Shown here: positions 320 through 62,009 of the stretch, in pieces | How the letters are laid out: each line of letters begins with the position of its first letter | How positions within the stretch are numbered: the first letter of the stretch is position 1 | Source: a virus | Direction: 5' to 3' (one strand) | DNA: 64,000 nucleotides | Virus record (IMG/VR): IMGVR_UViG_3300021399_000161 | Location: 2,449 to 66,448 of that record | Translations under genes and position numbers: made by a program | The notes under the pieces: model-generated | Told to the model about the DNA's origin: nothing | Seen by the model: the letters and a program-made list of their open reading frames with translations, nothing else | Database searches by the model: none

Positions 320-552
320 AGAACACGCTACAGGACGTCAACAATTATCTTTTCGAGGCCATCGAGCGCCTTGATGATTGCACCACGGACGAAGAACTCG
401 ACCGCGAAATCAAACGCGCACGGGCTGTCCGTTCCGTTGCGGAAACAATAATCGACAACGGCGCACTGATCCTTGACGCACAGAAACTCTATGCGCAGTA
501 CCGAGGCATGGAAGATCTGCCGGGTCTGCCGCTCTTTGAGGGCGGTGCCTGA
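316..552 (+). CDS. hypothetical protein
   Basis: 78-aa ORF whose stop overlaps the next start (TGATATG); phage-like acidic/helical composition. Confidence 0.45.
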   Translation: MKNTLQDVNNYLFEAIERLDDCTTDEELDREIKRARAVRSVAETIIDNGALILDAQKLYAQYRGMEDLPGLPLFEGGA

Positions 553-553
553 T

Positions 554-1198
554 ATGTGGCATCCGACAAACGAACAGCGGGAATGGTTCCGGGAGAACTG
601 CCGGGGGAAGAACTACCGGCAGATAGCCGAAGCGTTCACGGAACGGTTTGACATTGAGATGTCAGCAGTACGGGTGAAGTCCTTCATGCAACGCAATCAT
701 CTGCGGACAGGGTTACCGCAGCGTTTCCAGCTTGGGCATATCCCATACAACAAGGGCAAACACATGAAGCCGCCGCCCAACGTCTTCAAGCCCGGGAACA
801 TCCCACACAATCACCTGCCGGTGGGGACGGAGCGCGTCCAGAAGCACGGCTATCTCTACGTCAAGATTGCAGAGCCGAACATCTGGAGACCGAAGTCTGT
901 GCTGTTCTACGAAGCGGCATTCGGCCCTGTGCCGGAAGGATACCATGTGGTATTCGCTGACAGGGACATTCGCAACTTCAACATCTGGAACCTGAAGGCG
1001 GTACCAGTGTCAGAGATATCGACCATAAACCGTCTTGGACTGCCATACTACAGTCCTGCCTCACTGGAGACAGCCAGATATGTTGCAAGGCTGGCAAGCG
1101 CGATCAGCAGAGTACAGAAAAACCGACATCGCAAGCGGAAAAAGGAACTGCGGGAACAACAGCAGCCAATAACACAACCTGGAGGGGTTTCGAAATGA
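554..1198 (+). CDS. HNH homing endonuclease (HNH_3/AP2-like)
   Basis: Motif GYHVVFADRDIRNFNIWNLKAV fits the HNH_3 pattern; basic C-terminal tail; ATG at 554 overlaps upstream stop. Confidence 0.65.
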   Translation: MWHPTNEQREWFRENCRGKNYRQIAEAFTERFDIEMSAVRVKSFMQRNHLRTGLPQRFQLGHIPYNKGKHMKPPPNVFKPGNIPHNHLPVGTERVQKHGYLYVKIAEPNIWRPKSVLFYEAAFGPVPEGYHVVFADRDIRNFNIWNLKAVPVSEISTINRLGLPYYSPASLETARYVARLASAISRVQKNRHRKRKKELREQQQPITQPGGVSK

Positions 1199-1386
1199 AA
1201 TTATTCGTGGAAGACGTAGCAATCCTGACCGACCTTGAACGGGAAGGAGCAATACCGCTGAAGTGCAAGATGGGGCTGGACAGGGACATGCTGAGTATCA
1301 CCTACGAGGGCAACCGTGATGGGTGGATCCTGAAGGTTCCCGTGGACGCCCTGAAGAAGGTTATTCTTGAGGATGATCTGAAATAG
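1195..1386 (+). CDS. hypothetical protein
   Basis: 63-aa ORF with ATGA overlap to the HNH gene. Confidence 0.4.
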   Translation: MKLFVEDVAILTDLEREGAIPLKCKMGLDRDMLSITYEGNRDGWILKVPVDALKKVILEDDLK

Positions 1387-1397
1387 GGCATAAATCA

Positions 1398-1780
1398 AGA
1401 CCAATCATGGATGGAGCTGTGACTGGGATTTTGGATTTTGGCATGGAGACCAATTCCCAGTAGGCGCTTTCCGGTCGATAATGAGATTCCGCATTCCTGA
1501 TTTCCATTTGGGATTTTTCACAGGACCACATATGACGATTCCATTTGGGATTTTCGTGGATACATACAAAAGCCAGAACCAATTTGAGATTTTCGCAGGA
1601 GCACATATGGCAGGAAAAACCAGAAAGAGGAAACACGTAAAGATCACACGAACCGGGGAGTCAGTCTTCCCGGTTTCTATACCGAATAACAAAGGGAAAC
1701 CAATGCACCCGGTTTTCAATCCAAACAACGAAGGGGAGAAAATCTTCCCGGTTTCCATCACAGATAGTGAAAGAGGGGGA
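1398..1780. repeat. Iteron cluster I: at least 4 copies of CCATTTGGGATTTT-like repeats and 3 copies of CTTCCCGGTTTCYAT, upstream of the helicase gene
   Basis: Direct repeats read in the sequence; the listed ORFs 1481..1789 and 1405..1818 are repeat-derived. Confidence 0.6.
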
Positions 1781-1785
1781 TCGCC

Positions 1786-3318
1786 ATGAGCGGGAATGAG
1801 CAAAACGAAGCCAGTCAAGGGAAGAAGCCAGCCAAGGCCGAGACTCCGAAGAGCACCCCCGTCAACATGGCAGAGGCCTACTTACGGTCCGGGCTGACGG
1901 CAGATGACTTCCTGACGGATACCTGGCCGGAGAAAATCAATATTGAACCGAAGGACATGGATCTGAGCATGAAGACGTTTCTGTTCCATAATCTGAATGC
2001 CAAGGGAGAACCGACCGGCGTCAATGACTATAGGATATATACCTATCTCACCCACACGCAGCACATAATCACATGCGGGAAGGTGGTGTATCTATATAAG
2101 AACGGTTATTACCAGGAAGACCTGAGTGAGACGCTGCTGACATCCCTGATTGGGGACTGTATGTTGGAGCAGTTCTATCGTTCAAACACTGTAGCCAGGG
2201 TGCATAAGATGTTCCTCCAGAGGAACGAACTTGTGAAGAGGCCGGAAGAGCTGAACCGATACAACAGCCGTTTCATCAATTTTCAAAATGGGATGTATGA
2301 CGTGACCAGAAGGAAACTGTATAACCATGAACCGAAGCTGCTTTCTACCAATCAGATACCGTGGGATTATGACCCGGCAGCAGACCACGGACCCGGAGAT
2401 GAAATTGAGAAATTCTTAGCTTATGCGATCCCTGACAAGGATGACAGGGAGATGCTTCTGGAGTACATCGGCCTGTGCTGCACAAAGGATGTCCATCAGC
2501 AGAAGATGTTGGTGATCTGCGGAGACGGCGGCACTGGAAAGAGCACCGTGATAAATCTCATTCAGAAGATCGTTGGGAAGCGGAACACTTCGAACGTGGC
2601 TATGTCAAAGCTGTCGATGAATTTTCAGGCAATCAGGATGATGGGGAAGCTGCTCAATTCCTGTGCCGATTTGGAAATTGACGCCCTTGATGACGTGACC
2701 ATGATCAAGAAACTGATAGGAGAGGACAGTATTTCGGATTCATACAAAGGCAAGGATATCATTTCATTCGACAACTATGCGAAACTGTTATTCTCGACAA
2801 ACGAGTTGCCGCTAGTTCGAAATGAGAAAACTGAAGGCTTCTATCGGAGACTTCTTATCCTCACCATGAACGAAAAGCCCGAGAAGCGCGATTCGAAGTT
2901 ACCGGAGAAGCTGGAAAAACAGATACCGTATCTGCTCCACATGGCAATGGAAGCACTCCACAGGATGTATGAACGTGGGTATATCATCGAGTCAGCCGGA
3001 TCCAAGGAGAAGGTCCGTCAACTGAGAAACGACAGTGACACCATCGAGGCATTTCTGTTTGATTGTTGCAAGACAGGGAATACTGAGAGCAAGGTAGAGC
3101 GCAAGATCCTGTATGACAGATACGTCGAATACTGTAAGGACAACGAGAGGCAGAGCCATCAGAAGAACAACTTCCTGAAGGCATTGAGGAACAAAGGCTT
3201 CCCGGAATGCAAAGTCGGTGGAACGTGGATGTTCAGAATGATAAATCTGAAGGAGGCAGATGGAAGTGGCTTCATGCCGGTCCCGGAAGGAGAGCCGGAG
3301 ATACCATTCCCGAGTTGA
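1786..3318 (+). CDS. P4/D5-family SF3 replicative helicase (phage/plasmid primase C-terminal domain type)
   Basis: Walker A VICGDGGTGKST; D5_N-like region upstream; 510 aa; RBS GAAAGAGGGGGA. Confidence 0.75.
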   Translation: MSGNEQNEASQGKKPAKAETPKSTPVNMAEAYLRSGLTADDFLTDTWPEKINIEPKDMDLSMKTFLFHNLNAKGEPTGVNDYRIYTYLTHTQHIITCGKVVYLYKNGYYQEDLSETLLTSLIGDCMLEQFYRSNTVARVHKMFLQRNELVKRPEELNRYNSRFINFQNGMYDVTRRKLYNHEPKLLSTNQIPWDYDPAADHGPGDEIEKFLAYAIPDKDDREMLLEYIGLCCTKDVHQQKMLVICGDGGTGKSTVINLIQKIVGKRNTSNVAMSKLSMNFQAIRMMGKLLNSCADLEIDALDDVTMIKKLIGEDSISDSYKGKDIISFDNYAKLLFSTNELPLVRNEKTEGFYRRLLILTMNEKPEKRDSKLPEKLEKQIPYLLHMAMEALHRMYERGYIIESAGSKEKVRQLRNDSDTIEAFLFDCCKTGNTESKVERKILYDRYVEYCKDNERQSHQKNNFLKALRNKGFPECKVGGTWMFRMINLKEADGSGFMPVPEGEPEIPFPS

Positions 3319-3905
3319 GATTTTTGGAAGTATGATTGCAGGTTCGAGTTGAGATTTCTTGAAGTGGTTTTCGAAATGAGATTTTTCCACGAATGTCTGA
3401 CCTGAATTTCGAAATGAGATTTTCCCAGGAGATCTACAATACAGATTTCGAAATGAGATTTCCGCAGGAATTCTGCTTCTGATTTCGATTTGAGATTTTC
3501 AAAGGCGAACCGGTAACCAAATAACGATTTGAGATTTCCTGAAGAACCTGACAAGCGAAAACAGATTTGAGATTCCGCAAAGAACCCGACAATCAAAACC
3601 CGATTTGGGATTCCCGTAGAACCTGGCAAACAAGAGCCGATTTGAGATTTCTAGGGCCGATATTCCATTTGGGATTTCCCGAAGTGAATGTCGATTTGAG
3701 ATTTCCGGAAGTAAACACAAAGTCAAAAATCAAATTGAGATTTTTCGAGGTAAACTCGAAGTCGAAAATCGATTTGAGATTTTTTGGAGCACACTCGAAT
3801 CCAAATTCCATTTGAGATTTTTCAAAGTGCCCCATAAACCCAATTTCCATTTGAGATTTTCGAAAGTAAAACCATACCCAAAATTCGATTTGAGATTTTT
3901 CAAAC
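3319..3905. repeat. Iteron cluster II: about 17 degenerate direct repeats of GATTTGAGATTTYCNNAAG at a period of about 35-40 bp
   Basis: Read directly; variable 14-25 nt spacers; unit lengths are not multiples of 3, so the overlapping ORFs 3567..3815 and 3593..4246 are artefacts. Confidence 0.7.
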
Positions 3906-3923
3906 CACTTGGAGGTGTAAACG

Positions 3924-4483
3924 TGAGAGTTGATATTGTCAATTATTCCGATAACTGGCAGGCCGTCAAGGATGCCGCAATGAACACAATTGGGATTGAG
4001 TCTGGCAAGTACCCTGACAGCAGCTGGAAGTGGAAAATGCTGAAGGCCGAACACAGCCCAATCAGATTGATCGAGCTGACAATTCGAATTGAGGATATCC
4101 CCTATTGGGTTTCGACGCATCTTGTCAGGCACAAAATCGGGGTGGAACATTTCGTCTCCACTCAGCGGACGGACCGCACTGGCATAAACCGAAATGAGTT
4201 GCCACAAAACGCCCCTGTCTGCCACACCATGAGGATAAACGCTCAAGCCCTGATTGCTATGAGCCGGAAACGGTTATGCCATCAGGCCGCACCGGAAACG
4301 CGTTCGGCGTGGTCTCAGGTCATCGCGGCGGTTCGTGAGGTCGAGCCGGAATTGGCCGCTTGCTGTGTTCCGGAATGCATCTATCGCGGCCACTGCCCCG
4401 AACTGAGATGCTGCGGAGCGTTCGGATCTGGCAAGTTCCAACTGAGACGCGCCGCATACATAAACGGAGTCGAGATGTTCTGA
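3924..4483 (+). CDS. thyX: Compact ThyX-like flavin-dependent thymidylate synthase homologue
   Basis: GTG start after GGAGGTG; RHK-X7-S motif (RHKIGVEHFVS) matches the ThyX RHR-X7-S signature; HSP..L.I and INAQALIAMSRKR blocks parallel T. maritima ThyX; Cys-rich C-terminus. Confidence 0.6.
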
Positions 4484-5575
4484 GGACACAGAGACACCCC
4501 GCAGAAGCCCGTCAGGAGGCCACACAGCCCCCGTCAGGCCGTCAGGGTGGATTTTATCCCGCCAACGGTCAGAAACCGTCTGGTGAGCCGCCAGGAGAGC
4601 CGAAGCCCCACACGCGCACCCGCGCGAGTTGCACCGGATTTTTTGAATTTGGGAAATTGAATACAAAAATAAACGCCGGTCAGAAAGTCGATTTTTTTCT
4701 GGCCGGTTTCGATTTTTGGAGATTTTTCTTGCGGAATGTCTGCCGATCTGGTGTTCGGACCTGGCAGCCCGGTCACCCCTTGGTCGGTCTCTGGGCGGCA
4801 CCTGGGATCCGTCAAGGCCCCCGAAAAGCGCCCCTTGCGCCCCTTGGAACCCGTCAAGGGAACCCGGAAGCCATGCCCGCCCCGCTTGAGACCTTCAGAG
4901 GATCCCCGGAAGAGGCCGCAAGCCGCCCTTACATCACTGGCCAGCCCGGAAGGACCTAAACCAGCCGGAAGCCTTGACCGGTCCGGAAGATCCGGAAAGC
5001 CTATAGGATGAGACCGGCAGCACGACAGGCCGCCGGACGCCCTACAGGATGAGGAAAGCACCCACGGCCAGCGCAAGCGGACCGAAAGAGACCCGGAAGC
5101 GCGACAGACCGCCGGAAGCCGCCAGGACTACAGGCAGACCGCCGGAAGAGGCAGACCCGAAAAAACTACAGGCAGACCGCACACCAGGCAGCCACCAAGA
5201 CAGACAGCCGCAAAGGCAGACCGCCGGACCTATAACCCGCCGGACATGGAAACCACGCCCCGCACGATCTGCCGCCGGACATGGTAAGACATCCGAACAA
5301 AACACCAGTAGCCGCCGGACATGATGAGACCAAGACGGCAGGCAAGCCGAAATCCTACTATATATAGAAGGCACCCGGACAGGATCCCCGGAAGCTGTGA
5401 CGGCCTTCTTCATGTCGGCAGATCCGGAAGCCGTGACGGCCTTCTTTCCTGTATGAGATCCCCCGAAAGTGTAAACCCTTCTATAGCAGATCGGAAAAAC
5501 GGAAACGTGAATGCTTTCTATATTATAGAAGCTATTCTTCTGAACTACCGCCCGAAACCTACTTATATATAGAAG

Positions 5576-5782
5576 TCACTCACCACCAGCGCCGGAAGAG
5601 TCCCGCGCGATCTTTTCCGCAATCGCTTCTTTTATATAGGTATTTACCCCTATGCCAGCAGCAGCCGCCGCCGGTTTCAAGATGTTTTCAAAGTAATCTG
5701 CCTGCAGATCTAGCGGCACGCGCTTGTAGTTTTTCGCAGCGTATTTCATAGACGCCCTTTTTTGTGCTTCACTCGTTGCCAA
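5576..5782 (-). CDS. Ribbon-helix-helix (Arc/CopG-like) DNA-binding protein
   Basis: KRVPLDLQADYFENIL...AAGIGVNTYIKEAIAEKI fits the RHH pattern; TTG start 8 nt after GGAGG. Confidence 0.55.
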   Translation of the reverse strand: MATSEAQKRASMKYAAKNYKRVPLDLQADYFENILKPAAAAAGIGVNTYIKEAIAEKIARDSSGAGGE

Positions 5783-5854
5783 TCTTCACGCCTCCAATCT
5801 ATCAGAACACAAGAAAACACAGTTTCTCAAAGTGAGTATAACACACAATGGAAA

Positions 5855-5955
5855 ACACGTACATGCATATATTGCACAAAACACTGCTATAAATGTACGT
5901 GCATTTTAGCGAGTATTCCGATATTGCTATAAACGTACGTGCATAGTATAATAGC
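5855..5955. promoter_or_regulatory. Divergent promoter/operator region: 21-bp direct repeats YTGCTATAAAYGTACGTGCAT (5883-5903, 5923-5943) plus a partial third copy; the second repeat overlaps a -35 TTGCTA / 17 bp / -10 TATAAT promoter
   Basis: Read directly; lies between the RHH gene (-) and the rightward early genes. Confidence 0.55.
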
Positions 5956-6027
5956 ATCATCAAAGAAAAGCGACGCCCCGAAAGAGACGCCGCCGCACTT
6001 TGAAAACTAAATAGGGAGGTGAAAGCC

Positions 6028-6159
6028 ATGTTAACGGAATTTGGTTACACCGGCAAGGTTGACGGGATCGAATACGCGACCGAGCAGGAAGCCAAAGAAG
6101 CCAACAAGGACAACACCAGGGAGGCGGCAAGGCCGCCCCCGCTCCACTATTTGGTTTGA
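6028..6159 (+). CDS. hypothetical small protein (43 aa)
   Basis: Strong RBS AGGGAGGTGAAAGCC before ATG; too short for the ORF track. Confidence 0.4.
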   Translation: MLTEFGYTGKVDGIEYATEQEAKEANKDNTREAARPPPLHYLV

Positions 6160-8722: not shown

Positions 8723-9952
8723 CTTGACTGGCACCAGGAAAGCCACGAAACCCGCATAGAAACCGCCTAGCAGCCGCATACAGACAGCAGACAGACGGAC
8801 ATATAGAAAGACCCGGAAGCCGTCACAAAAGGCCGTAAAAGGCCATACAGGAAGCCGCCACAAAGCACCCCGAAAAGGCCATAGGCAGGACGGTAAAGAA
8901 GAACTCGAAACAGGCCATACAGGGAACCGCCGCAAAGCTGGACATGGAAAGACGCCAGGAAGATACCAGCCGCCAGGAGACAGAAGCCCGGAAGACTGGC
9001 AGCAGATCGGAAGACATGGAGACATGCCCGGAAAGCTGGAGACGGGACACAGACAGAAAGCCGGAAAATCTGCTATCAGACCGGCAGACACCAAAATCCA
9101 AAACCACCAACAGCGGGACCGCGTAAGCGGTCCTTTTCCGCGTCCAGGATCGCACCGAAATAGAATTTTCCCCCGCCTTGGATCCCGCCGGAATGAAATT
9201 TTTCCCCGCAAAAAGCACTCCAAAACCCCGCCGGAATTGGGGCAAAAGTGGTTGAAAAAGTGCCCCAAGACATGCCCCTAAACCCCGCCAAAAATGCCCC
9301 ATTGGGGCATCACACTCAGAACGTTAAAAGTTTAACAATTACAGAAAATTCGAATTGGGGCAAAAATACCCCTGTTAGGGGCACGTTTTTTTACCATTTG
9401 CCCCTAAAAATGCCCCATCAAAAACCCCGTAGTTATAGGCTTTTTTGGGGTATTGGGGCATAAGGGGAATATATATATAAGTTAAAAAAATTATGTATAT
9501 GTATAGTGCATGTATTACATATATAAAGAATAACGGCAAAAATCATGCCCTTTTTGCCCCTAGACTGAATAGGGGCATGAAAACATAGAAAAGTTGAGTG
9601 TGTGCCAACCAGGAAGAGAAGCGGCTTTCCTGGTATAGGCCATCCAGGGGAAACCACCTTGTCAGGCGTCACGATCTGCAAAGCAGCGGCCACCTCCTTG
9701 ACAGGCTTTACGATCTTGCGCGGTTCCTGCCTTGATCGGCTTATACGGTCCGCAAAGAGACTTCACACCCTGTCAGGGCATCCAGTCCGGATCCTGGATA
9801 CAGCTTGCCTTGCCAGGCTTTACGGTCCGGAATTTCCGTATACGTCCCAATGCGCCCCGCCGCACGTTGTACAATGGTTATATAGGGCACGCAAACCCGA
9901 TACAGGGCGCCTAGGACGCCCAAATAGACCACTACAGAAAGGATTGCAGACC

Positions 9953-10522
9953 ATGCCTAGAGGCGGAAGCAAAGACGGGAATAACAGCCCCTTGATAGGG
10001 GATAACGGCGTTCTCGCCAGTACCGACGAGTTGACAGCCCTAACGCGGAACATGCGCGAAAACTTCATAAAGGATCTGTCGCGGCCGCCTGTAGATCTTC
10101 ATGACCCGGAAGCTACAAAAGAAGCTATATATAACTATCTCCTAGACTGTGAGCAGCACGGGAAACGCCCCGGAAACATGGGTTTATATAGGGCGCTGGA
10201 CATATCGCGGCAGGACGTTCACAGCATAATTACGGGACGCGATAAGAAGAAAGTAAGCCCTGAATGCTGCGACATTCTGAAAAAAGCGTTGCAAATGTTA
10301 GGCGAATACAGGGAGCAGCTAGGCGCACAAGGCAAGCTAAATCCTGTCACTATGATTTTTTGGCAAAAGAACTACGACGGACTACAGGACGCCCAGCAAA
10401 TAGAAGTCACCGCCCAGCAGGGCCCGGCCGCATCCATGACGCCGGAAGAGATAGCCAGGCAGATAGAGAAGGACATACCAATAGACGCCGACTATCAGGA
10501 GACGGACGGCGGCACACAGTAA
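9953..10522 (+). CDS. terS: terminase small subunit (Terminase_2/P27-like)
   Basis: NPVTMIFWQKNYDGLQD resembles the conserved 'IFLLKNNFGYKD' block of terS proteins; 189 aa; sits upstream of HNH and terL. Confidence 0.6.
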   Translation: MPRGGSKDGNNSPLIGDNGVLASTDELTALTRNMRENFIKDLSRPPVDLHDPEATKEAIYNYLLDCEQHGKRPGNMGLYRALDISRQDVHSIITGRDKKKVSPECCDILKKALQMLGEYREQLGAQGKLNPVTMIFWQKNYDGLQDAQQIEVTAQQGPAASMTPEEIARQIEKDIPIDADYQETDGGTQ

Positions 10523-12375: not shown

Positions 12376-13315
12376 CGGTTCCGGTCACGACGGCTTCGAT
12401 TATTCCGACTTTGAGGATGATTGCGAAGCGTCGGAAGATGAGGAATACGAGTAGGGCATATCTTTGGGTGATAGATCACATGGTTTGGCCATCTAGCATG
12501 ACCGATACACTGAAACAAGTTGGCCATACTCATTTACTCTCCTTTTTCATACGTTTTGGCGGGTGCGGGGCATTCCTGCATTCGCCGCATTGATTGATCA
12601 AGGCATCGTGTGACGATGACACACTTGGGCAGTCGCGACATGGCGTATTCCGACCTTGACCGGCATGGGAGGCGGCACTTCATGCTGACAGGTGAGCGGA
12701 TATGCCACCACGGTGCAACTCCGTGGCTGTCCACTATGCGTGGTGGTTGGATTTGGGGTCGCTACGTGGCGTTCCGTAGTCTCTATGCGGGACATCACAC
12801 AGCATCACAGCATCTTCGTCTGTTCCGGCCACACGAAGACACGCAGCACTGAACCGATGGACGCATCGGGGAGGGAGCCTGTGTACGTAAACCGGCGCAC
12901 CATGGACGCATGGGAGCTGGCGGGTGCATAGGTATAATTGGGGCATAGCATCAGGGTTGATCTGTCCCTGGTGATGTTCCAGACGTTGGTGTTGTAGCAG
13001 AAACGGGGATACATCGGGCAGTGTTTTCTGGTATCCGCCTCTTTGGCAATGTGGGGTGGTCTGTCAGTGGCTGACGCTTGAATGTGTTTCTATTACCCAC
13101 CTCAACATCAAAAAACGTGCAGGTTATCCCACTTGGCGTAAGTAGGGAACGCGCCGGGGCTGGCTCCTCTGGTCAGCCTGATGGAGATACGGGTCCGAGT
13201 CCCGTAGTGGGAGGTTGGTCGGCCACATGCATGAAAGAGGAATACCGCTCCTCCCAACGAACCTCGCCCCTGATTGCGTGTGGTTCGGCCATTATTGTGA
13301 TTGTGGACAAAGGAT

Positions 13316-15025
13316 ATGCAGAGACAACAGACGCTTGAGCAGAACAAAGACATCATCCGAAAACTTCATACGCTTGACCTGAATGACGTGAAAATCCTGA
13401 CCATGCTTTACGACATGTGCCTGGCTATCAAGGATGAAGACATCGATATGGCGAAGACCGAGATGAAGACGGTCAAGAACCGTGCGGCTTCCCTGACAAG
13501 GACTGTTGGAAAGCCTGCCGTGGAGTTGTATTGGAATGCCATGCTGTTTCTGGCGCAGAACCGCTGCCTGGATGAGGCGCTTATATACCTGGAAAGGTAT
13601 CGCCTGCCGGAGGACCGGTTCTATCTTCCGAGACGGAAGGTGTTCCTGAAGTTAGGTATCACACAAGCATTGCAGAGACTCATAGATGACGAAATAGATG
13701 TTCTTACATTGTCTTGCGCTCCTGGAATCGGAAAGACCACGATGTCCGAAATGTTCCTGTCCCTATGGATTGGATGGGATCCGGATGCCTGTAACCTGTT
13801 CAGCTCCCATTCCGGGCATGTCACCCGCATGGTATATGATGTCATCAGCAACATCATCGGGGCAGACTTGAAGAAGGGGCAGATACCGGAGTATGCCTGG
13901 CGGGAGATTTTCCCGACTGTCAATATTCAGGATGTGAATGCGAAGGAGGAGACGATCAACCTTGGCAAGTTCAAACCATTCAAGAGCATCACGTTCAGGG
14001 CTATCAATGCTTCTCAGACTGGCGTCACCCGTGCTGATGGGCTGTTGTATTGCGATGACCTATGCTCTGGCATTGAAGAGGCCCTTTCGAAGATACGTCT
14101 CGATAAGCTGTGGCAGAAGTACACCACAGACCTGAAGACCAGAAAGAAGGGTGGGCGGCATGGCAGGCGCGTGAAGGAACTGCACATAGCCACCCGGTGG
14201 AGTGTCCATGATGTCATTGGGCGTCTCCAGAGGCAGTATGAGGGAGATCCGCGCTGTGAATTCATTTCATATCCGGATATCGACCCTGAGACCGGGAAGA
14301 GTAACTGGAACTATGATTACGGCGTAGGGTTCGATGAGGCATATTTTGAGGACATCCAAAATACCCTTGACGATATCACCTACAAGTGTCTGTACAAGAA
14401 CCAGCCGATAGAACGAGAAGGCCTGCTGTTTGAGCCGGATCTGCTTCGGCGCTTCAGGGAACTGCCGCCGGGCAAGACGCCGGATGCCATATGGGGCTTC
14501 CTTGATCCGAAAGGTACTGGTACGGACTACAATACCTTGGGCGTCTTCTACCAGTACGGGACAGATTACTATCTGGCCGATGTAGTATTCCGGAATATCG
14601 ACCCGTACATGCTTGACCGGCTGAATGCCAATATGCTGATTGAGCATGACGTGCAGATCTGTCAGATTGAGTCGAACAAAGAAGGCGTAAGGACCGGAGA
14701 CGAGATACAGAGACTGGTGAAGGAAGCCGGTGGGCGATGCTCCATTGAGAAACGGTATTCGACTGCCAACAAGGAGACACGTATCATTGTCAATTCGCCG
14801 TGGGTGATACAGCACGTCCTGTTCCTGGAGGGCAAGTCTCCGGACAACCCTGACGGGTATGCTCCGAATTCCGAGTATGGGCAATTCATGGCGGCGCTGA
14901 CAAGCTACAGCCAACTTGCGAAAAATCCGCATGATGATGCACCGGATATGGTGACCATGCTTGCGATACATGAGGGTGGAGACAACCTGTCTCCTATAGC
15001 AACTATTTTCACTGGAGTTATGTGA
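13316..15025 (+). CDS. terL: terminase large subunit
   Basis: Walker A-like SCAPGIGKTT; about 570 aa; position between terS/HNH and portal. Confidence 0.8.
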   Translation: MQRQQTLEQNKDIIRKLHTLDLNDVKILTMLYDMCLAIKDEDIDMAKTEMKTVKNRAASLTRTVGKPAVELYWNAMLFLAQNRCLDEALIYLERYRLPEDRFYLPRRKVFLKLGITQALQRLIDDEIDVLTLSCAPGIGKTTMSEMFLSLWIGWDPDACNLFSSHSGHVTRMVYDVISNIIGADLKKGQIPEYAWREIFPTVNIQDVNAKEETINLGKFKPFKSITFRAINASQTGVTRADGLLYCDDLCSGIEEALSKIRLDKLWQKYTTDLKTRKKGGRHGRRVKELHIATRWSVHDVIGRLQRQYEGDPRCEFISYPDIDPETGKSNWNYDYGVGFDEAYFEDIQNTLDDITYKCLYKNQPIEREGLLFEPDLLRRFRELPPGKTPDAIWGFLDPKGTGTDYNTLGVFYQYGTDYYLADVVFRNIDPYMLDRLNANMLIEHDVQICQIESNKEGVRTGDEIQRLVKEAGGRCSIEKRYSTANKETRIIVNSPWVIQHVLFLEGKSPDNPDGYAPNSEYGQFMAALTSYSQLAKNPHDDAPDMVTMLAIHEGGDNLSPIATIFTGVM

Positions 15026-37436: not shown

Positions 37437-37524
37437 CCGGCGGCAACTGAACAGGTTTCAGTACACCGGGGACGGCTCCGGTGTTTTTTGCGTGCCCATA
37501 AGCGCTTGTAATTCAATTGGATCG

Positions 37525-37583
37525 ACTTGGAATAGGCTTGGAATTGACTTGGAATTGACTTGGAATTGACTTGGAAGTCAATT
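37525..37583. repeat. Tandem 11-bp repeat (GACTTGGAATT) in 4-5 copies, ending in the palindrome AATTGACTTGGAAGTCAATT
   Basis: Read directly; lies between the recombinase stop and cassette A. Confidence 0.6.
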
Positions 37584-41747: not shown

Positions 41748-42340
41748 TTTTTTGCCGTCCAGTGATGAGGGCGGCTTTTTTGATGGGCGAATATGCATGG
41801 TTACATGAACAAAATAACCTCAAAATGATGGCATCAGGCCCCAAAGGGTAGTGGGTAAGGGGTCACCTGTTGTCTTTTCATTTTTTGACATGTAACCAAC
41901 CCGCATGGTTACGCGGTTTTTCGCCTGTTGTCTTTTGTTGTCTACTAGGTCAAAATAAGCACTTTTAGGGGTAAAATCTTGCCTTTTTCGGATAAAAGAA
42001 AAACCCGGAAATCCTTGTACCTACGCGGAAAACTCGGATTTTCGGGTGTTGTCTAAAAGTCGGGGTAGTGGGATTTGAACACAAATGAGAAACCCCAAAA
42101 CCCGCATAAACACGCGGTTTTTCGCATATCATCTGTTGTCTTTTGTTGTCTCGTCAAAATTGCGGTTACATAATCATGTAATCACGTGTAACCAGACAGC
42201 TTCATTTCCTGCCTTGTATGGCCTACTTTCAAGGCCATTCCCATCATGTGATCACGACATCGGAAGTATCGTATTCCGGGAAAACGGAAGGCGTGGTTAC
42301 ATTTCTGTTGTCTTTTCCCACTACCCCTAAAACATCACTA
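41748..42340. other. attP region: arm-type direct repeats (CTGTTGTCTTTT x4-5, ACGCGGTTTTTCGC x2-3, GGTTAC x5) and a tRNA 3'-end-like fragment
   Basis: Read directly; 42062-42080 GGGGTAGTGGGATTTGAAC is the reverse complement of a tRNA T-loop plus acceptor 3' strand (TTCAAATCCCACTACCCC); it lies adjacent to the 3' end of the integrase gene. Confidence 0.6.
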
Positions 42341-43395
42341 TCTTTGGTGCTGATAGTAATATCTTTACTTTCCCCAGTGATAAGCCCCGAGAAGTGATCC
42401 GACATCTTATTCGAATACTTATCCGCCGCAATGTCAATCTTGTTCTGGTACACAGCCTTCATGACCGGCGAACCATGACGCCAGCCGCCGAATTCTGCCA
42501 GGTAGATGTCCGGGATCCCCAACACAGCCCCAATCGATGCGTAGTAATGCCGCAGGTCATGGAACCTGATATCTATCCCCAGCTTGTTCCTGAGACGGTT
42601 GAACCGATGTGTCACCCTGTCAGGATGGGAGAGAGTCACGTATGCATCATCCGGACCGTCACCGATCAGGTCAATCACCTGTTGGGGGAGCAGTACGCTG
42701 CGGATAGACTCGGATGTCTTCGGAAAATCTTTGTACACGAAGCCGTCCATGGACTGCACCATGTCGGCATGAACATGGGCGATGCGTCCATCGATATCCT
42801 TATGCTTCAGGGCACATATCTCTCCTCTCCGCATAGACCCGAAAGCCGCCAGTGCGATACACACCTTCAGCTCCTCACCGGCCTGCGTGAACAGTTCCTT
42901 TACGTCATCATCTGATGGAGCAGACCTTCTCGCCTTCGGTTTCTTCGGCAGGGTAGTGCGGAATACTGCATCGGGCCGGAACATATATATGGCCGATGTG
43001 AGCAGTCCATAGATATTCCCGATGCTCTTAGCTGATACCTTCCCGACAAGGCTGGCAACGAAGAGTTGCATATCCTCCGTTGTCAGGTTATACACCAGTT
43101 TATCCTCGATGCGCCCGAAGTGGGTGTTCTGCAAGGATCTGTATGACCTGATGGAAGAGGGGGAGAGTATCTTTTCCTTGGAATAGATGTATCTCTCTAT
43201 GGCTTCTCCCACTGTGATCTCCCTTATGTCTCCCGGCTTTCCCACCTCATCCAGGTGCCTGCCTGCCCTTATTTCCGCCTCCTTCTTCGTCTTCCCGGAA
43301 ATGGCAGTATATACCTTCTTCCCGGTCTTCTTGTCGATGCCGTCATAGACGATCACGCGCCAATTCCCTGACGGCTGTCTTTTTGCAGTTGCCAT
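42244..43395 (-). CDS. int: tyrosine integrase (phage integrase family)
   Basis: FHDLRHYYAS and AVYQNK catalytic Arg/His/Tyr pattern; N-terminal SAM-like domain; 383 aa; arm repeats continue into its 3' end. Confidence 0.85.
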   Translation of the reverse strand: MATAKRQPSGNWRVIVYDGIDKKTGKKVYTAISGKTKKEAEIRAGRHLDEVGKPGDIREITVGEAIERYIYSKEKILSPSSIRSYRSLQNTHFGRIEDKLVYNLTTEDMQLFVASLVGKVSAKSIGNIYGLLTSAIYMFRPDAVFRTTLPKKPKARRSAPSDDDVKELFTQAGEELKVCIALAAFGSMRRGEICALKHKDIDGRIAHVHADMVQSMDGFVYKDFPKTSESIRSVLLPQQVIDLIGDGPDDAYVTLSHPDRVTHRFNRLRNKLGIDIRFHDLRHYYASIGAVLGIPDIYLAEFGGWRHGSPVMKAVYQNKIDIAADKYSNKMSDHFSGLITGESKDITISTKDSDVLGVVGKDNRNVTTPSVFPEYDTSDVVIT

Positions 43396-44647: not shown

Positions 44648-45049
44648 TGCTCATATCCTTTCTGATCCAAAACAGAACACTCAGCCCTGCCCCTGCACTG
44701 CACACGTTGCATGATGGGGCAGGAGAACATGGTGCATATCTTTATTACGCCCTCAAAATCATCGGCACGAATATAATCAATAGATACGGTTTGCTTTTTC
44801 CCTGTCTTCTTGCAGATGCCGGTTTCCGAAATCACTTTGCATTTCCTCCCAAATAAAAACCCGGTAACCATAAGGCTACCGGGTGTCTCTCATAGAAAGT
44901 CTCAGGATGGGCGGCGTATCCATCATCTCAGGTACCTTTTTGTCGGTGCGTCGGGAGCCTTTCCGACCTCTGAGACTTATCGGTAGCTTCAATATACTAA
45001 ATGTTTACTGCTCGGTCAAGGCAACGCCACTGTTGACATCATCCCCGTT

Positions 45050-50286: not shown

Positions 50287-51048
50287 ATGGCAAGCTATGT
50301 GTATAAATATGAGAGCAACGGGATCCCGGTATACATTGGAATAACTGACAACATGAAGCGCCGCGTCTCTCAGCATAAAAACGACAAACTGAAAGTGATA
50401 AATAATCCCAAAATACAATTCATAAAGGTTGAAAACAGAGCCGACGCAGAGGCGATGGAAACATACCTGATCAGCAAGTATGATACTGGCTCATACTTCA
50501 ATGTGTCAAAGACAAAGAAAGGGAAAGCAGCGTACTTTGACAGCATCTTTGATAACATTCCGTGGAGTGACTATAACGAGAATACGGACGAAGACATAGA
50601 TATATTTCGACTCGATCTTGCCCATACTGTCCAGACTGTGTATCGCGACCGTGTGATAGAGCGCCAAAAAGGTTTTTCTTTTGACAAGCAACAACAGGAG
50701 AAACACGAGTGCATTGAATATCTAGAGGAAGAAGCAAGGGAGGAACGCAAAATAATACCCATGCTTGAAGACCTTCTTCTAAACCCGCCATCGAACAAGG
50801 TGGTATGCCCAGGTCACCTGTTGGAAAAAGGTATATGTCTTCACAAAAAAAGGCTAAATGCCTTAGAAAGGGCAATATATGTTGTAAGAAAATCGCTCAG
50901 GCCATATAGAGGTTCTGAATTAAAGGAAATGCAAAGAGAATTGGCTACCCTGCCTTTTGTGCTTGAAGACATTATAGATGCTATCAATGAACATGAAGCA
51001 CATGTCAGGCTAATCATGGCGGAAAAGAGGGAGCAAAACAACAAATGA
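50287..51048 (+). CDS. GIY-YIG domain protein (second, tandem)
   Basis: N-terminal YVYKYESNGIPVYIGITDNMKRRVSQH. Confidence 0.6.
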   Translation: MASYVYKYESNGIPVYIGITDNMKRRVSQHKNDKLKVINNPKIQFIKVENRADAEAMETYLISKYDTGSYFNVSKTKKGKAAYFDSIFDNIPWSDYNENTDEDIDIFRLDLAHTVQTVYRDRVIERQKGFSFDKQQQEKHECIEYLEEEAREERKIIPMLEDLLLNPPSNKVVCPGHLLEKGICLHKKRLNALERAIYVVRKSLRPYRGSELKEMQRELATLPFVLEDIIDAINEHEAHVRLIMAEKREQNNK

Positions 51049-59844: not shown

Positions 59845-60153
59845 ATGCATAAGCCAGATGGATGTACCTACCCTGATTGCTTCTCCTGCCAACTCCCTGA
59901 CTGCTCATACAGTGAACGGGAGATATTTCTCGATAGACAGGCCGCAAATATGCGGAAACGACGAAAAGCCAAGCCGGAGCAATACCTGGCAGCCCAGAGG
60001 AGACAGCGGGCTGCCATGGAGGCAAAGGATCCCGGACACTATGCCAGACTGGCAAGGGAATATCGGAAGCGGAAAAAGCAGAAGCACAACGCCGTAGAAA
60101 TCGAAATGAAATGGTTAAAGATGACGATATCGAAAACATCCGGCAAACAGTGA
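59845..60153 (+). CDS. small basic Cys-rich protein
   Basis: CTYPDCFSCQLPDC motif; K/R-rich tail. Confidence 0.4.
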   Translation: MHKPDGCTYPDCFSCQLPDCSYSEREIFLDRQAANMRKRRKAKPEQYLAAQRRQRAAMEAKDPGHYARLAREYRKRKKQKHNAVEIEMKWLKMTISKTSGKQ

Positions 60154-60680
60154 CGATGCGGGAGCTGGCAACGTCCTACGGGTACAAGGTCACGCCATCC
60201 GGGTTCTGTAGATGCCCATTCCACAACGATAAGTCCCCGAGCATGAAGATCTACGATGGGCAGCGCGGCTACTACTGCTTCGTCTGCAATAAGGGCGGGG
60301 ATATCTACGATTTCGTGATGGAACATGATGGCGTAGGCTTTGAGGCCGCTGTCAGGAGCATCGCAGACCGATTTGGTATCCACATAAGTGATGGGAAGGA
60401 AGTCAGTCAGGAAGCCCGTCAGAGGATGCTTGAACGGCAACGAGAACGGGAGGCTATGCAGAATGCAGAAGCCGCCAGACAGAAGCGGTTGCAAGCCCTG
60501 TCTGGGGAAATTCAGCTGATGAAAGACTGGTTGGAGAAATGTACGTCCCCGGTCAGCCCACCCTGGAGGGAGAAGAATACATCCACAATCAGCCCACTCT
60601 GGATGGCTCTCCAGAAGCGCATCGAAAACCTTTCCCTTGAATGGGAATACTTGTTTGCCGGACATGATAGGCACACCTGA
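60111..60680 (+). CDS. CHC2 zinc-finger protein (DnaG-primase-type zinc-binding domain only)
   Basis: CRCPFHNDKSPSMKIYDGQRGYYCFVCNKGGDIYDFV; no TOPRIM domain evident. Confidence 0.6.
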   Translation: MVKDDDIENIRQTVTMRELATSYGYKVTPSGFCRCPFHNDKSPSMKIYDGQRGYYCFVCNKGGDIYDFVMEHDGVGFEAAVRSIADRFGIHISDGKEVSQEARQRMLERQREREAMQNAEAARQKRLQALSGEIQLMKDWLEKCTSPVSPPWREKNTSTISPLWMALQKRIENLSLEWEYLFAGHDRHT

Positions 60681-61454: not shown

Positions 61455-62009
61455 ATGATCTATGACGAGAAAGACCGGGCACTCAAGGCATACTGCCGTC
61501 AGTTTGCGATGTGTGATGAATGTCCGATTGACACAGAAATGCCGAACCACAAGTGTGGCCAGGGGTACACATTCGGGTATCACGCCTTCAACTCGGCAGA
61601 CCTTAACGATATGTTTGCGATAGCCTTTGCTGGGATGTCAGATCAGGAAGTGAAAGAGATGTATCTGGATGAAACACCAGACCAGACGGAGGCCAACCCT
61701 GACAGTCAGACGGCTGACCAGACAGCGAAAGCGGACGCGGGAAAGCCAGAACTGTCAATGGTTCCGAAAGAAATCATTTACTCCATCGAGCGTGTACGCC
61801 GGTTTGGGAATCAGAAATACGGTTCTCCCGACAACTGGCGGAATGTGAGCATTGACCGATACTGGGAGGCGTTCCTACGTCACACACTGGCGGCATGGAA
61901 CAATATTGAGGCGGTAGATCAGGAAAGCGGGCTGTTGGCAATTGAGCATTGTGCCTGCAACCTGGCTTTCATTCTGGAGCTGATGAAGGAGAAACGCAAC
62001 AATGATTGA
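61455..62009 (+). CDS. hypothetical protein with N-terminal Cys cluster; C-terminus possibly MazG/NTP-pyrophosphohydrolase-like
   Basis: CDECPIDTEMPNHKC; IERVRRFGNQKYG...AIEHCACNLAFILEL; weak call. Confidence 0.35.
   Translation: MIYDEKDRALKAYCRQFAMCDECPIDTEMPNHKCGQGYTFGYHAFNSADLNDMFAIAFAGMSDQEVKEMYLDETPDQTEANPDSQTADQTAKADAGKPELSMVPKEIIYSIERVRRFGNQKYGSPDNWRNVSIDRYWEAFLRHTLAAWNNIEAVDQESGLLAIEHCACNLAFILELMKEKRNND

What the first reader, a model, noticed from the sequence alone, without database searches (positions are those of the whole stretch)
3319..3905. Array of ~17 degenerate iterons (GATTTGAGATTTYCNNAAG) immediately downstream of the SF3 helicase gene, a putative replication origin
Over about 590 bp a conserved unit of roughly 19 bp recurs about 17 times with variable 14-25-nt spacers and no stable reading frame. 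The pattern resembles the ori/crr iteron fields bound by the P4 alpha primase-helicase, and the adjacent gene encodes a P4/D5-family helicase. The copy number is unusually high and the spacing regular, and a further iteron-like copy (CGATTTTTGGAGATTTTT) sits at about 4708. The repeat degeneracy and short length argue against a CRISPR array.
Basis: seen in the sequence. Interest (0 to 1): 0.6.

Follow-up and report, generated by a model that had tools for sequence, protein, structure and literature searches.

The report
Probable phage replication-origin repeat array
Just after the replicative helicase gene of an uncultured temperate rumen phage lie 17 same-direction copies of a 12-13 bp motif, most likely the DNA sites where that helicase binds to start replication; the principle is known, but the array is unusually large and regularly spaced.

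Summary
Seventeen copies of the core TGRGATTY (fuller form A-W-TTGAGATTTT-C) lie on the + strand at 3316-3898, mostly 37-39 bp apart, where about 0.06 is expected by chance. The claimed copy at about 4708 is a one-mismatch near-match in the T-tail of a terminator.

The gene at 1786-3318 encodes a self-loading SF3 helicase: D5_N, an SF3 ATPase and a C-terminal winged helix. Its best solved relative is SaPI5 PriRep (7OLA). SaPI Rep proteins, and the homologous gene in Streptococcus phage Sfi21, have their origin directly 3' of the helicase gene.

Nine related rumen phage lineages (helicase 55-66% identical) carry the same motif beside the helicase gene. Their spacers differ. More distant relatives carry other repeats there, many with the classic layout of short iterons, an AT-rich centre and inverted iterons. 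All nine TGAGATTT lineages share the helix peptide KALRNK; all 13 lineages with other repeats differ.

Best reading: an initiator-binding origin field. It departs from characterised origins in being unidirectional, 0.6-1.2 kb long, spaced at 13/26/38-39 bp, bracketing the helicase gene, and lacking a discrete AT-rich core. Function is inferred, not shown.

The parts
3312..3905 (+). Main array: 17 direct copies of A-W-TTGAGATTT-T-C (cores start at 3315, 3349, 3376, 3414, 3453, 3490, 3529, 3567, 3605, 3642, 3669, 3696, 3735, 3774, 3812, 3851, 3890). Spacing is 37-39 bp in 12 intervals, 27 bp in 3 and 34 bp in 1. The helicase stop codon TGA (3316-3318) lies inside the first copy. The last copy ends 6 nt before the RBS of the next gene.
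1505..1596 (+). Upstream cluster: three strong copies (cores 1508, 1545, 1584; spacing 37 and 39 bp) between a weak promoter-like site (1454-1482) and the RBS/ATG at 1607. Two degenerate copies lie at 1424-1431 and 1482-1489.
   Evidence: Comparable upstream copies occur in L033, L163 and L270, and inside the 5' end of the gene in L032.
1786..3318 (+). Self-loading SF3 helicase/initiator, 510 aa: D5_N, DUF5906 (SF3 ATPase) and a Pox_D5 C-terminal domain. It has no primase domain. It is the presumed binder of the repeats.
   Evidence: Pfam and PHROGs. The family profile hits PDB 7OLA (SaPI5 PriRep) at E 8e-27. The AF2 model has pLDDT 78 and 7OLA is its top Foldseek hit.
2995..3249 (+). C-terminal winged-helix domain (residues 404-488). 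The predicted recognition helix is residues 460-469 (nt 3163-3192), the KALRNK peptide is residues 465-470 (nt 3178-3195), and the wing is residues 474-484.
   Evidence: AF2 secondary structure with pLDDT 87-93. Pox_D5 and RFX_DNA_binding hits at residues 416-474. KALRNK is present in 9/9 TGAGATTT lineages and altered in 13/13 lineages with other repeats.
1607..1789 (+). Small ORF (60 aa) whose stop overlaps the helicase start (ATGA). It is called as a gene in the source contig. It is not conserved in related phages, so it is an unlikely binder of the conserved repeats.
3923..4483 (+). ThyX-like gene directly downstream (GTG start, GGAGG RBS). It is a neighbour, not part of the element. It is absent beside the arrays of L033, L270 and L271.
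4675..4717 (+). Intrinsic terminator (13-bp stem) and its T-tail.
   Evidence: and the sequence

Best explanation
The array is a cis-acting field of binding sites (iterons) for the phage's own self-loading SF3 helicase/initiator, and it acts as, or within, the origin of phage DNA replication.

Proposed mechanism. After induction or infection the early operon is expressed. The helicase recognises the asymmetric 12-13 bp site A-W-TTGAGATTTT through the recognition helix and wing of its C-terminal winged-helix domain. Many protomers or hexamers then assemble on the 17 same-orientation sites downstream of the gene, and on the 3-5 sites upstream of it. The resulting nucleoprotein complex distorts the moderately AT-rich repeat DNA (58-68% AT), so that the helicase can load itself and the separate DnaG-type primase, SSB and a polymerase can start synthesis. 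The upstream sites lie between a promoter-like sequence and the operon's first RBS. They may also let the protein repress its own operon or pair with the downstream field.

What is shown: the repeats and their statistics; the domain make-up and fold of the helicase; the position of the array relative to the gene; conservation of the core against divergent spacers; and the association between repeat sequence and recognition-helix sequence. What is inferred: binding by this protein, origin activity, the site of unwinding and any autoregulation.
For: (1) The repeats are real, one-stranded and confined to the flanks of the helicase gene. Only 7 other TGRGATTY matches occur in 64 kb on both strands, below the chance level of about 12.

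(2) The helicase has D5_N, an SF3 ATPase and a C-terminal winged helix. Its closest solved relative by sequence profile (E 8e-27) and by fold is SaPI5 PriRep. SaPI Reps bind iterons located immediately downstream of rep through the C-terminal winged helix (PMC9371898; PMC7581432).

(3) In Streptococcus phage Sfi21 the homologous gene (BLASTP E 3e-19) is followed at once by the annotated 302-bp origin of replication. That origin has GTTAC repeats in both orientations around an AT-rich centre.

(4) About two dozen more distant relatives (35-50% identity; Lachnospiraceae genomes and viral contigs) start a run of 4-6 short repeats 9-12 bp apart within about 30 bp of the helicase stop, with a gap of about 50-75 bp between sub-clusters. 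In the two I read in full, L119 and L140, the run is followed by an AT-rich stretch and inverted copies.

(5) Nine rumen phage lineages with 55-66% identical helicases carry the same core next to the helicase gene, with divergent spacers and copy numbers of 5 to about 30. Weights from 87 copies give about 12-13 informative positions and no flank complementarity.

(6) The repeat changes with the protein. KALRNK in the predicted recognition helix goes with TGAGATTT in 9/9 lineages. AALRKK goes with TGGGATTT, RALRNK with TGAGTTTTT, KALRSK with GAAAAGCTATGG, and nine further variants with other repeats.

(7) The helicase is the only neighbour common to all arrays. The ThyX-like gene and the small upstream ORF are not conserved partners.
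Against: There is no experimental evidence of binding or origin activity. All copies point the same way and no inverted copy lies near the array, whereas SaPI origins need oppositely oriented iterons on both sides of an AT-rich centre. The window array has no discrete AT-rich unwinding element: the least stable 60-bp windows of the phage are elsewhere, for example 9468-9527.

The 37-39 bp spacing is not a multiple of the helical repeat and is much wider than in characterised Rep origins. In L270 and L272 other genes separate the array from the helicase gene.

The association between helix and repeat is confounded by phylogeny. L117 differs from the TGAGATTT group by only one residue in the hexapeptide. 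The array is probably co-transcribed with the helicase and ThyX-like genes, because no terminator is predicted between them, so an RNA role cannot be excluded.
Confidence: 0.6

Rival explanations
1. The helicase binds the repeats, but the large downstream field is a control or enhancer element rather than the place where DNA is opened. It would titrate or pair ('handcuff') initiator molecules, as the nine incA iterons downstream of repA do in plasmid P1 or as crr does for P4. The true start site would be the small upstream cluster at 1505-1596 or another sequence.
For: The bipartite layout of 3-5 sites upstream and 17 downstream of the initiator gene recurs in the window, L033, L163, L270 and L032. 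The downstream field has no AT-rich core or inverted copies. Copy number is highly variable, from 5 to about 30. The P1 and P4 layouts are from my own knowledge and were not tested here.
Against: The phage encodes an integrase and a CI-like repressor, so it is not a plasmid prophage needing copy-number control. L114/L029 and L115/L274 have no upstream cluster yet keep the downstream one. In every characterised relative the origin is the downstream element.
Confidence: 0.17
2. The repeats are binding sites for a different DNA-binding protein of phage or host origin, and they act in transcription control, genome condensation or partition, or packaging. Arrays such as F sopC (12 x 43 bp) are a precedent, known to me from the literature.
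For: The regular period of about 38 bp resembles centromere-type arrays more than Rep origins. The region holds further arrays: CCGGAMR x17 at 4864-5430 and an 11-bp tandem shared with L116/L273. Several small HTH genes are nearby.
Against: No ParA or ParB was found among the 30 larger ORFs scanned, and the phage integrates. The large terminase candidate lies about 10 kb away. No neighbouring gene other than the helicase accompanies the arrays across lineages. The motif does not occur at other promoters of the phage. The repeat sequence tracks the helicase recognition helix.
Confidence: 0.12
3. The functional form is RNA. The helicase-to-ThyX intercistronic transcript would carry 17 UUGAGAUUUU motifs that bind or sequester an RNA-binding protein, or tune translation or stability of the flanking genes.
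For: All copies are on the coding strand. No terminator or promoter is predicted between the helicase gene and the ThyX-like gene. The fold energy is slightly better than shuffles (z = -2.4; 1 of 20 shuffles is as good).
Against: There is no Rfam match. Across 87 copies there is no conserved pairing or covariation between flanks. Copies also occur upstream of the operon and, in L270, after genes on the opposite strand. Distant relatives have direct-plus-inverted DNA iterons at the same position, which only makes sense for double-stranded DNA.
Confidence: 0.06
4. The array is a functionless minisatellite that expanded by tandem duplication of a unit of about 38 bp in a tolerant intergenic gap.
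For: Local sub-families of near-identical neighbouring units show recent duplication: 3376-3453, 3529-3606 and 3735-3890 in the window, and perfect 38-bp tandem copies in L117. Copy number is variable between phages.
Against: The 12-13 bp core is conserved across nine lineages whose helicases are only 55-66% identical, while the spacers are unalignable. Strand and position relative to the helicase gene are conserved. A separate cluster upstream carries the same core.
Confidence: 0.04

Closest known systems
SaPI Rep / ori (Staphylococcus aureus pathogenicity islands; PriRep5 structure 7OLA)
   Same: It has a homologous self-loading SF3 helicase with a C-terminal winged helix (profile E 8e-27 and top fold hit). 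Its repeats begin immediately 3' of the helicase ORF. No separate loader is known (PMC9371898).
   Different: SaPI iterons are 5-6 bp, number 6-12, are closely spaced, and lie on both sides of an AT-rich centre in opposite orientations. Here the site is 12-13 bp. There are 17 + 3-5 copies, all in one orientation, mostly 37-39 bp apart over about 600 bp. No AT-rich centre is present and a second cluster lies upstream of the gene. The element is a complete temperate phage, not a satellite.
Origin of Streptococcus thermophilus phage Sfi21 (302-bp non-coding 'phage inhibitory sequence')
   Same: This is a temperate phage with a homologous helicase gene ('putative primase' orf382; E 3e-19). The annotated origin starts at that gene's 3' end.
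   Different: The Sfi21 origin is 302 bp, with short GTTAC-type repeats in direct and inverted orientation around a strongly AT-rich core. It has no long regular unidirectional array.
Satellite phage P4 alpha protein with ori and crr
   Same: P4 alpha has an SF3 helicase and a C-terminal winged helix that binds iterons (domain organisation cited in PMC2777425). From my own knowledge, it needs two separate cis elements that both carry the iterons.
   Different: P4 alpha carries a fused primase domain, whereas here the DnaG-type zinc ribbon is a separate gene at 60111-60680. P4 iterons are 8-bp TGTTCACC-type in both orientations (from memory, not tested). There is no sequence similarity between the sites.
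P1 RepA incC/incA and F RepE iteron plasmids
   Same: They share the layout of a few iterons upstream of the initiator gene, overlapping its promoter region, and a larger same-sequence set downstream of it (my own knowledge).
   Different: The initiator family is unrelated (RepA/RepE, loaded with host DnaA and DnaB). Iterons are 19 bp at about 21-22 bp phasing. Those elements are plasmids with copy control, whereas this element integrates.
SCCmec Cch2 origin
   Same: A self-loading helicase binds direct repeats downstream of its operon through its C-terminal domain. The direct repeats alone are sufficient for binding, and the inverted repeats are dispensable (PMC7581432).
   Different: It has three 5-nt AAGTG iterons only, and the helicase clade is different.

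Membership tests
SaPI/PICI-type Rep-ori module (self-loading SF3 initiator helicase plus iteron origin) | The initiator is an SF3 (D5/P4-alpha type) helicase with a C-terminal winged-helix DNA-binding domain | tested here: met
   Pfam D5_N, DUF5906 and Pox_D5 hits. Profile hit to 7OLA at E 8e-27 over residues 111-482. The AF2 model has a winged helix at 404-488 and 7OLA is the top Foldseek hit.
SaPI/PICI-type Rep-ori module (self-loading SF3 initiator helicase plus iteron origin) | Repeated sites lie immediately downstream of the initiator ORF | tested here: met
   The first copy contains the stop codon (3316-3318). The same holds in L029 and L031. In L272 the stop codon in the first copy is that of the inserted DUF551 gene, not the helicase. 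The array is displaced by inserted genes in L270 and L272.
SaPI/PICI-type Rep-ori module (self-loading SF3 initiator helicase plus iteron origin) | Short 5-6 bp iterons, 6-12 copies, closely spaced | tested here: not met
   The site is 12-13 bp, with 17 + 3-5 copies and a modal spacing of 37-39 bp.
SaPI/PICI-type Rep-ori module (self-loading SF3 initiator helicase plus iteron origin) | A central AT-rich region with at least two iterons on each side pointing in opposite directions | tested here: not met
   There is no minus-strand copy within or near the array. AT content is 58-68% throughout, with no discrete unstable core. Distant relatives L119 and L140, and Sfi21, do meet this feature.
SaPI/PICI-type Rep-ori module (self-loading SF3 initiator helicase plus iteron origin) | Specific binding of Rep to its cognate repeats, and Rep-dependent replication of ori-bearing DNA | not testable with these tools
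   There is only indirect support: KALRNK in 9/9 TGAGATTT lineages and a different helix in 13/13 lineages with other repeats.
P4 alpha / ori-crr system | Primase, SF3 helicase and winged helix fused in one polypeptide | tested here: not met
   The 510-aa protein aligns only to the helicase and C-terminal parts of primase-helicases. A DnaG zinc-ribbon gene is separate, at 60111-60680.
P4 alpha / ori-crr system | Two separated cis elements carrying the same iterons | tested here: met
   The clusters lie at 1505-1596 and 3312-3905, flanking the gene. This is not universal in relatives. Whether both are required cannot be tested.
CRISPR array | Near-identical repeats of 23-50 bp separated by unique spacers of similar length, usually with cas genes or a leader | tested here: not met
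   The conserved unit is about 12-13 bp and degenerate. Gaps between units run from 0 to about 26 bp. Copies abut at 13 bp in L032 and L272. No cas-like gene was found among the 30 ORFs scanned in this window.
Plasmid/prophage partition centromere (sopC / parS-type array) | An adjacent or co-resident ParA/ParB-type partition genes on an extrachromosomal replicon | tested here: not met
   An integrase and CI-like repressor are present. No ParA or ParB was found among the 30 larger ORFs scanned with Pfam. Not every ORF of the window was scanned.

The most novel reading that the evidence does not exclude
The array may be a new origin architecture rather than an enlarged SaPI-type origin: a unidirectional multi-hexamer assembly platform. 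Sites would be set on a 13-bp quantum (13/26-27/37-39 bp). The modal 38-39 bp period would match the footprint of one SF3 hexamer, so that up to 17-30 helicase rings, or a helical protein filament, load in a single orientation. This would drive unidirectional replication, while the upstream sites pair with the field to regulate the helicase operon. The same period with an unrelated motif in L117 would then reflect a structural constraint of the protein rather than shared ancestry of the repeats.
Probability: 0.2. Interest if true: 0.65.

Novelty: new variant of a known kind. Interest (0 to 1): 0.42.

Why it matters
Origins of replication are almost never annotated in uncultured phages. This case gives a concrete, testable origin and initiator pair for a clade of temperate rumen phages known only from metagenomes. 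Their more distant helicase relatives sit in Lachnospiraceae genomes, and the nearest GenBank phage helicase is only 30% identical.

The case also suggests a simple rule across about 120 loci: look directly 3' of the SF3 helicase stop codon. That rule could be used to annotate origins and to predict which satellites or phages share initiator specificity.

The unusual geometry poses a specific mechanistic question for the self-loading helicase field. The sites are many, unidirectional, set on a 13-bp quantum with a 38-39 bp mode, and they bracket the gene. How is a double hexamer, or bidirectional replication, set up without oppositely oriented sites?

Practically, such a fragment could serve as a phage-dependent replicon, or as a 'phage-encoded resistance' decoy of the kind described for dairy streptococcal phages.

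Tried and rejected
- **Rfam.** Gathering thresholds on the whole window and permissive thresholds on 1300-6100 found nothing in the array. The only permissive match was a meaningless Virus_CITE_1 hit at E 0.85.
- **RNA folding.** Folding 3300-3920 gave z = -2.4 with no repeated structural unit. Tests of complementarity and mutual information across 87 copies were negative, so I dropped the hairpin idea that the TTCGAAA...TTTCGAA and TTTGA...TCAAA flanks of some copies had suggested.
- **Promoter reading.** I tested TTGAGA as a -35 element. No + strand sigma-70-like promoter is predicted in the array, and the total number of sites does not exceed shuffles.
- **DnaA boxes.** They are not enriched (44 observed against 43 expected).
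- **AT-rich unwinding element.** None is present in the array. GC skew is dominated by gene orientation and was uninformative.
- **Close relatives.** Megablast of the first 12 kb against GenBank phages found no match. A single-protein scan of IMG/VR found none.
- **DNA-pattern scans for the repeat.** In IMG/VR and in metagenomes these mostly returned unrelated low-GC micro- and minisatellites and giant-virus repeats. These scans cannot be used to measure how exclusive the association with the helicase is.
- **ORFs in 4484-5575 and the small ORF at 1607-1789.** tblastn found no conservation in related phages.
- **CRISPR, centromere and packaging-site readings.** I considered and rejected them; see the membership tests.

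Full report
**The observation**

The region 3312-3905 holds 17 copies of a short motif, all on the + strand. The pattern TGRGATTY occurs 29 times in the window, against 12.4 +/- 3.4 in dinucleotide-preserving shuffles, and no shuffle reached 29. Seventeen of the matches lie between 3316 and 3898, where about 0.06 would be expected. Start-to-start distances are 34, 27, 38, 39, 37, 39, 38, 38, 37, 27, 27, 39, 39, 38, 39, 39. Tandem Repeats Finder and the repeat finder independently report 38-39 bp periods.

Two points need correction. First, five more copies lie on the same strand upstream of the helicase operon. Three are good (cores at 1508, 1545 and 1584, spaced 37 and 39 bp) and two are degenerate (1424, 1482). 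Second, the 'copy at ~4708' has a mismatch at an otherwise invariant base and is the T-tail of a strong terminator at 4675-4707. It is within chance expectation.

**The surroundings**

The window is a temperate phage known from sheep-rumen metagenomes; an identical helicase occurs on a 65.8-kb contig. It encodes:
- an integrase (42244-43395, - strand), a CI-like repressor and a Cro-like protein;
- a Rad50/SbcC-like ATPase, a RecT-like protein and SSB;
- a separate DnaG zinc-ribbon protein;
- a 2295-aa ORF, probably a tail component by its size.

Strong Shine-Dalgarno sites are used. More distant relatives of the helicase lie in Lachnospiraceae genomes such as Blautia and Dorea, which points to a clostridial host.

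The gene at 1786-3318 encodes D5_N, DUF5906 (an SF3 ATPase) and a Pox_D5 C-terminal domain, with no primase domain. A profile of 36 homologues hits one PDB family convincingly, SaPI5 PriRep (7OLA, E 8e-27, residues 111-482). An AlphaFold2 model (pLDDT 78) has the same chain as its top Foldseek hit. The model shows a confident C-terminal winged helix at residues 404-488. The presumptive recognition helix is residues 460-469 (KNNFLKALRN) and the beta-hairpin wing is at 474-484. A disordered tail follows.

**What relatives show**

I recovered about 120 loci encoding relatives of the helicase and examined the DNA after each stop codon.

Distant relatives. About two dozen relatives at 35-50% identity begin a run of 4-6 short repeats 9-12 bp apart within about 30 bp of the helicase stop, with a gap of about 50-75 bp between sub-clusters. 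The two I read in full, L119 (AGAGCAGTT) and L140 (GGGGGCAG), follow the run with an AT-rich stretch and inverted copies. That is the layout described for SaPI origins: 6-12 iterons immediately downstream of rep, an AT-rich centre, opposite orientations on the two sides, and recognition by the C-terminal winged helix (PMC9371898; PMC7581432). The GenBank record of Streptococcus phage Sfi21 annotates its 302-bp origin at the 3' end of a gene homologous to this helicase (E 3e-19). That origin has the same layout, built from GTTAC repeats. The rule 'the origin lies directly 3' of this helicase gene' is therefore documented for a satellite and annotated for a phage, and the same sequence pattern recurs across the family.

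Close relatives. In the window's own clade the element is much larger. Nine lineages with 55-66% identical helicases carry the same core: the window, L029/L114, L031/L032, L115/L274, L033, L163, L269, L270 and L272. Their spacers are unrelated and copy numbers run from 5 to about 30. Position weights from 87 copies in six of these lineages give an asymmetric site of about 12-13 informative positions, A-W-T-T-G-A-G-A-T-T-T-T-(C). There is no excess complementarity or mutual information between flanks. Spacings cluster at 13 (4 cases), 19-21 (4), 26-27 (9) and 36-40 (39). These are roughly multiples of 13 bp, and copies abut at 13 bp in L032 and L272.

- In the window, L029 and L031 the helicase stop codon TGA lies inside the first copy. 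In L272 the stop codon inside the first copy belongs to an inserted DUF551 gene.
- Copies upstream of, or in the 5' end of, the helicase gene recur in the window, L033, L163, L270 and L032.
- The helicase is the only conserved neighbour. The ThyX-like gene is missing beside the arrays of L033, L270 and L271, and the 60-aa ORF at 1607-1789 has no counterpart elsewhere.

Sister lineages carry other repeats in the same place:
- L116/L273: AAATTGAGTTTTT;
- L271: TTGGGATTT;
- L117: GAAAAGCTATGG, also with a 38-bp period.

[quoted passage not shown] It differs in all 13 lineages with other repeats that I examined: AALRKK, RALRNK, KALRSK, KSLRVK, RSLRTK, IAMRAK, SNLREK and others. This is what co-evolution of a binding site and its reader would produce. 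However, the association is confounded by phylogeny, and L117 differs by only one residue.

**Alternatives**

- RNA element. No Rfam family matches, there is no conserved pairing, and the fold is only marginally better than shuffles (z = -2.4). Copies also occur outside the intercistronic transcript. Distant relatives at the same position have both-orientation repeats, which implies duplex DNA.
- Promoters. None is predicted on the + strand of the array.
- Centromere or packaging site. The phage integrates and no ParA/ParB was found among 30 ORFs scanned. The large terminase candidate is about 10 kb away.
- CRISPR. The unit is too short and too degenerate, and copies can abut.
- Neutral satellite. 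This is contradicted by strict conservation of the core against diverged spacers across nine lineages.

**Most likely mechanism, and where it departs from known origins**

The best-supported reading (about 0.6) is that these are iterons for the phage's self-loading helicase/initiator and constitute, or form part of, the origin of phage replication. Binding, unwinding and any autoregulation through the upstream cluster are inferences.

The element fails two defining features of the characterised SaPI/Sfi21 type. It has no oppositely oriented copies and no discrete AT-rich core. It also differs in site length, number, spacing and bipartite placement.

A serious variant (about 0.17) is that the long downstream field is a titrating or pairing control element, comparable to P1 incA or P4 crr (both from my own knowledge), and that opening occurs elsewhere. 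The same-direction sites raise a real mechanistic question: how could two opposed hexamers be set up, or is replication unidirectional? The modal 38-39 bp period is about the size of one SF3 hexamer, and it recurs with an unrelated motif in L117. That leaves room (about 0.2) for a distinct multi-hexamer loading architecture.

**Novelty and score**

The principle is known. The clade-specific architecture and the phage group are new: the nearest GenBank phage helicase is 30% identical and there is no nucleotide match. I rate this a new variant of a known kind, with interest 0.42. It is a solid, testable origin prediction with an unusual geometry, but a specialist would not find its existence surprising.

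Noticed in passing
window 4864-5430 (+), within the gene-poor stretch 4484-5575: There is a second, GC-rich array: 17 copies of CCGGAMR (often CGCCGGAAG or CGCCGGACATGG), all on the + strand. It lies between the ThyX-like gene's terminator and a minus-strand 68-aa HTH gene (5576-5782). The window as a whole has 96 matches against 34 expected. None of the ORFs there is conserved in related phages, whereas ThyX and the HTH gene are. Relatives have GC-rich repeats with periods of about 36-39 bp at the same place, but with other motifs. The function is unknown. It could be a binding field for another protein, or a second part of the origin region.
   Followed up: partly
window 37505-37576 (+); L116 5465-5508; L273 4690-4733: An 11-bp tandem repeat CTTGGAATTGA (x6.6) sits just after a terminator-like hairpin at about 37.5 kb in the window. 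The identical 11-mer (GGAATTGACTT x4-5) directly follows the helicase-associated array in the related phages L116 and L273. It was absent from the other 273 loci held at the time. This suggests a shared binding site that sits in different genomic places.
   Followed up: partly
window 3250-3315 (helicase residues 489-510): The helicase ends in a disordered acidic tail (pLDDT < 50) with a conserved (D/E)-(I/L/M)-P-F motif near the C-terminus: EIPFPS here, and DIPF, DLPF or DMPF in relatives. P507 and F508 are nearly invariant in 36 homologues. The motif resembles the C-terminal DDDIPF tip of bacterial SSB (my own knowledge), which recruits partner proteins. It may be a docking peptide for the primase or host replisome factors.
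   Followed up: partly
window 44898-44977 (-): A full-length skipping-rope RNA (Rfam RF02924, 72 bits against a gathering score of 36.7) lies in the lysogeny region between the integrase and CI-like genes.
   Followed up: no
window 61455-62009 (+), 3923-4483 (+); dUTPase/DCD genes in L029, L031, L033, L271, L272, L274: A dATP/dGTP diphosphohydrolase N-terminal domain protein (PF18909, E 3e-19) and a short ThyX-like protein (186 aa, matching only the C-terminal third of the Thy1 profile) lie in the replication module. Relatives add dUTPase/dCTP-deaminase-like genes. Together these hint at nucleotide-pool remodelling or DNA base modification in this phage group.
   Followed up: no
window 9468-9527: This is the least stable 60 bp of the whole window (87% AT, TA-rich, about 5 sd from the mean). 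It sits upstream of the ORF at 9602-10522. It could be a strong promoter or regulatory region, or an alternative unwinding site.
   Followed up: no
L117 1809-2130; L116 4968-5440: In these sister lineages the helicase-proximal array is split into two sub-arrays by a GC-rich hairpin followed by a T-run (terminator-like): L117 about 1958-1990 and L116 about 5191-5220. The window's array has no such interruption.
   Followed up: no
window 473-1198 (+); 50287-51048 (+): An HNH endonuclease gene lies immediately upstream of the helicase operon, and a GIY-YIG domain gene lies in the early region. Relatives have HNH or NUMOD1 genes at the same spot (L271, L272). These are likely mobile homing-endonuclease insertions around the replication genes.
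   Followed up: no
window 13127-13213 (+): ARAGORN predicts a tRNA-Ala (GGC) of unusual length (87 nt) just upstream of the 574-aa ORF at 13301-15025.
   Followed up: no
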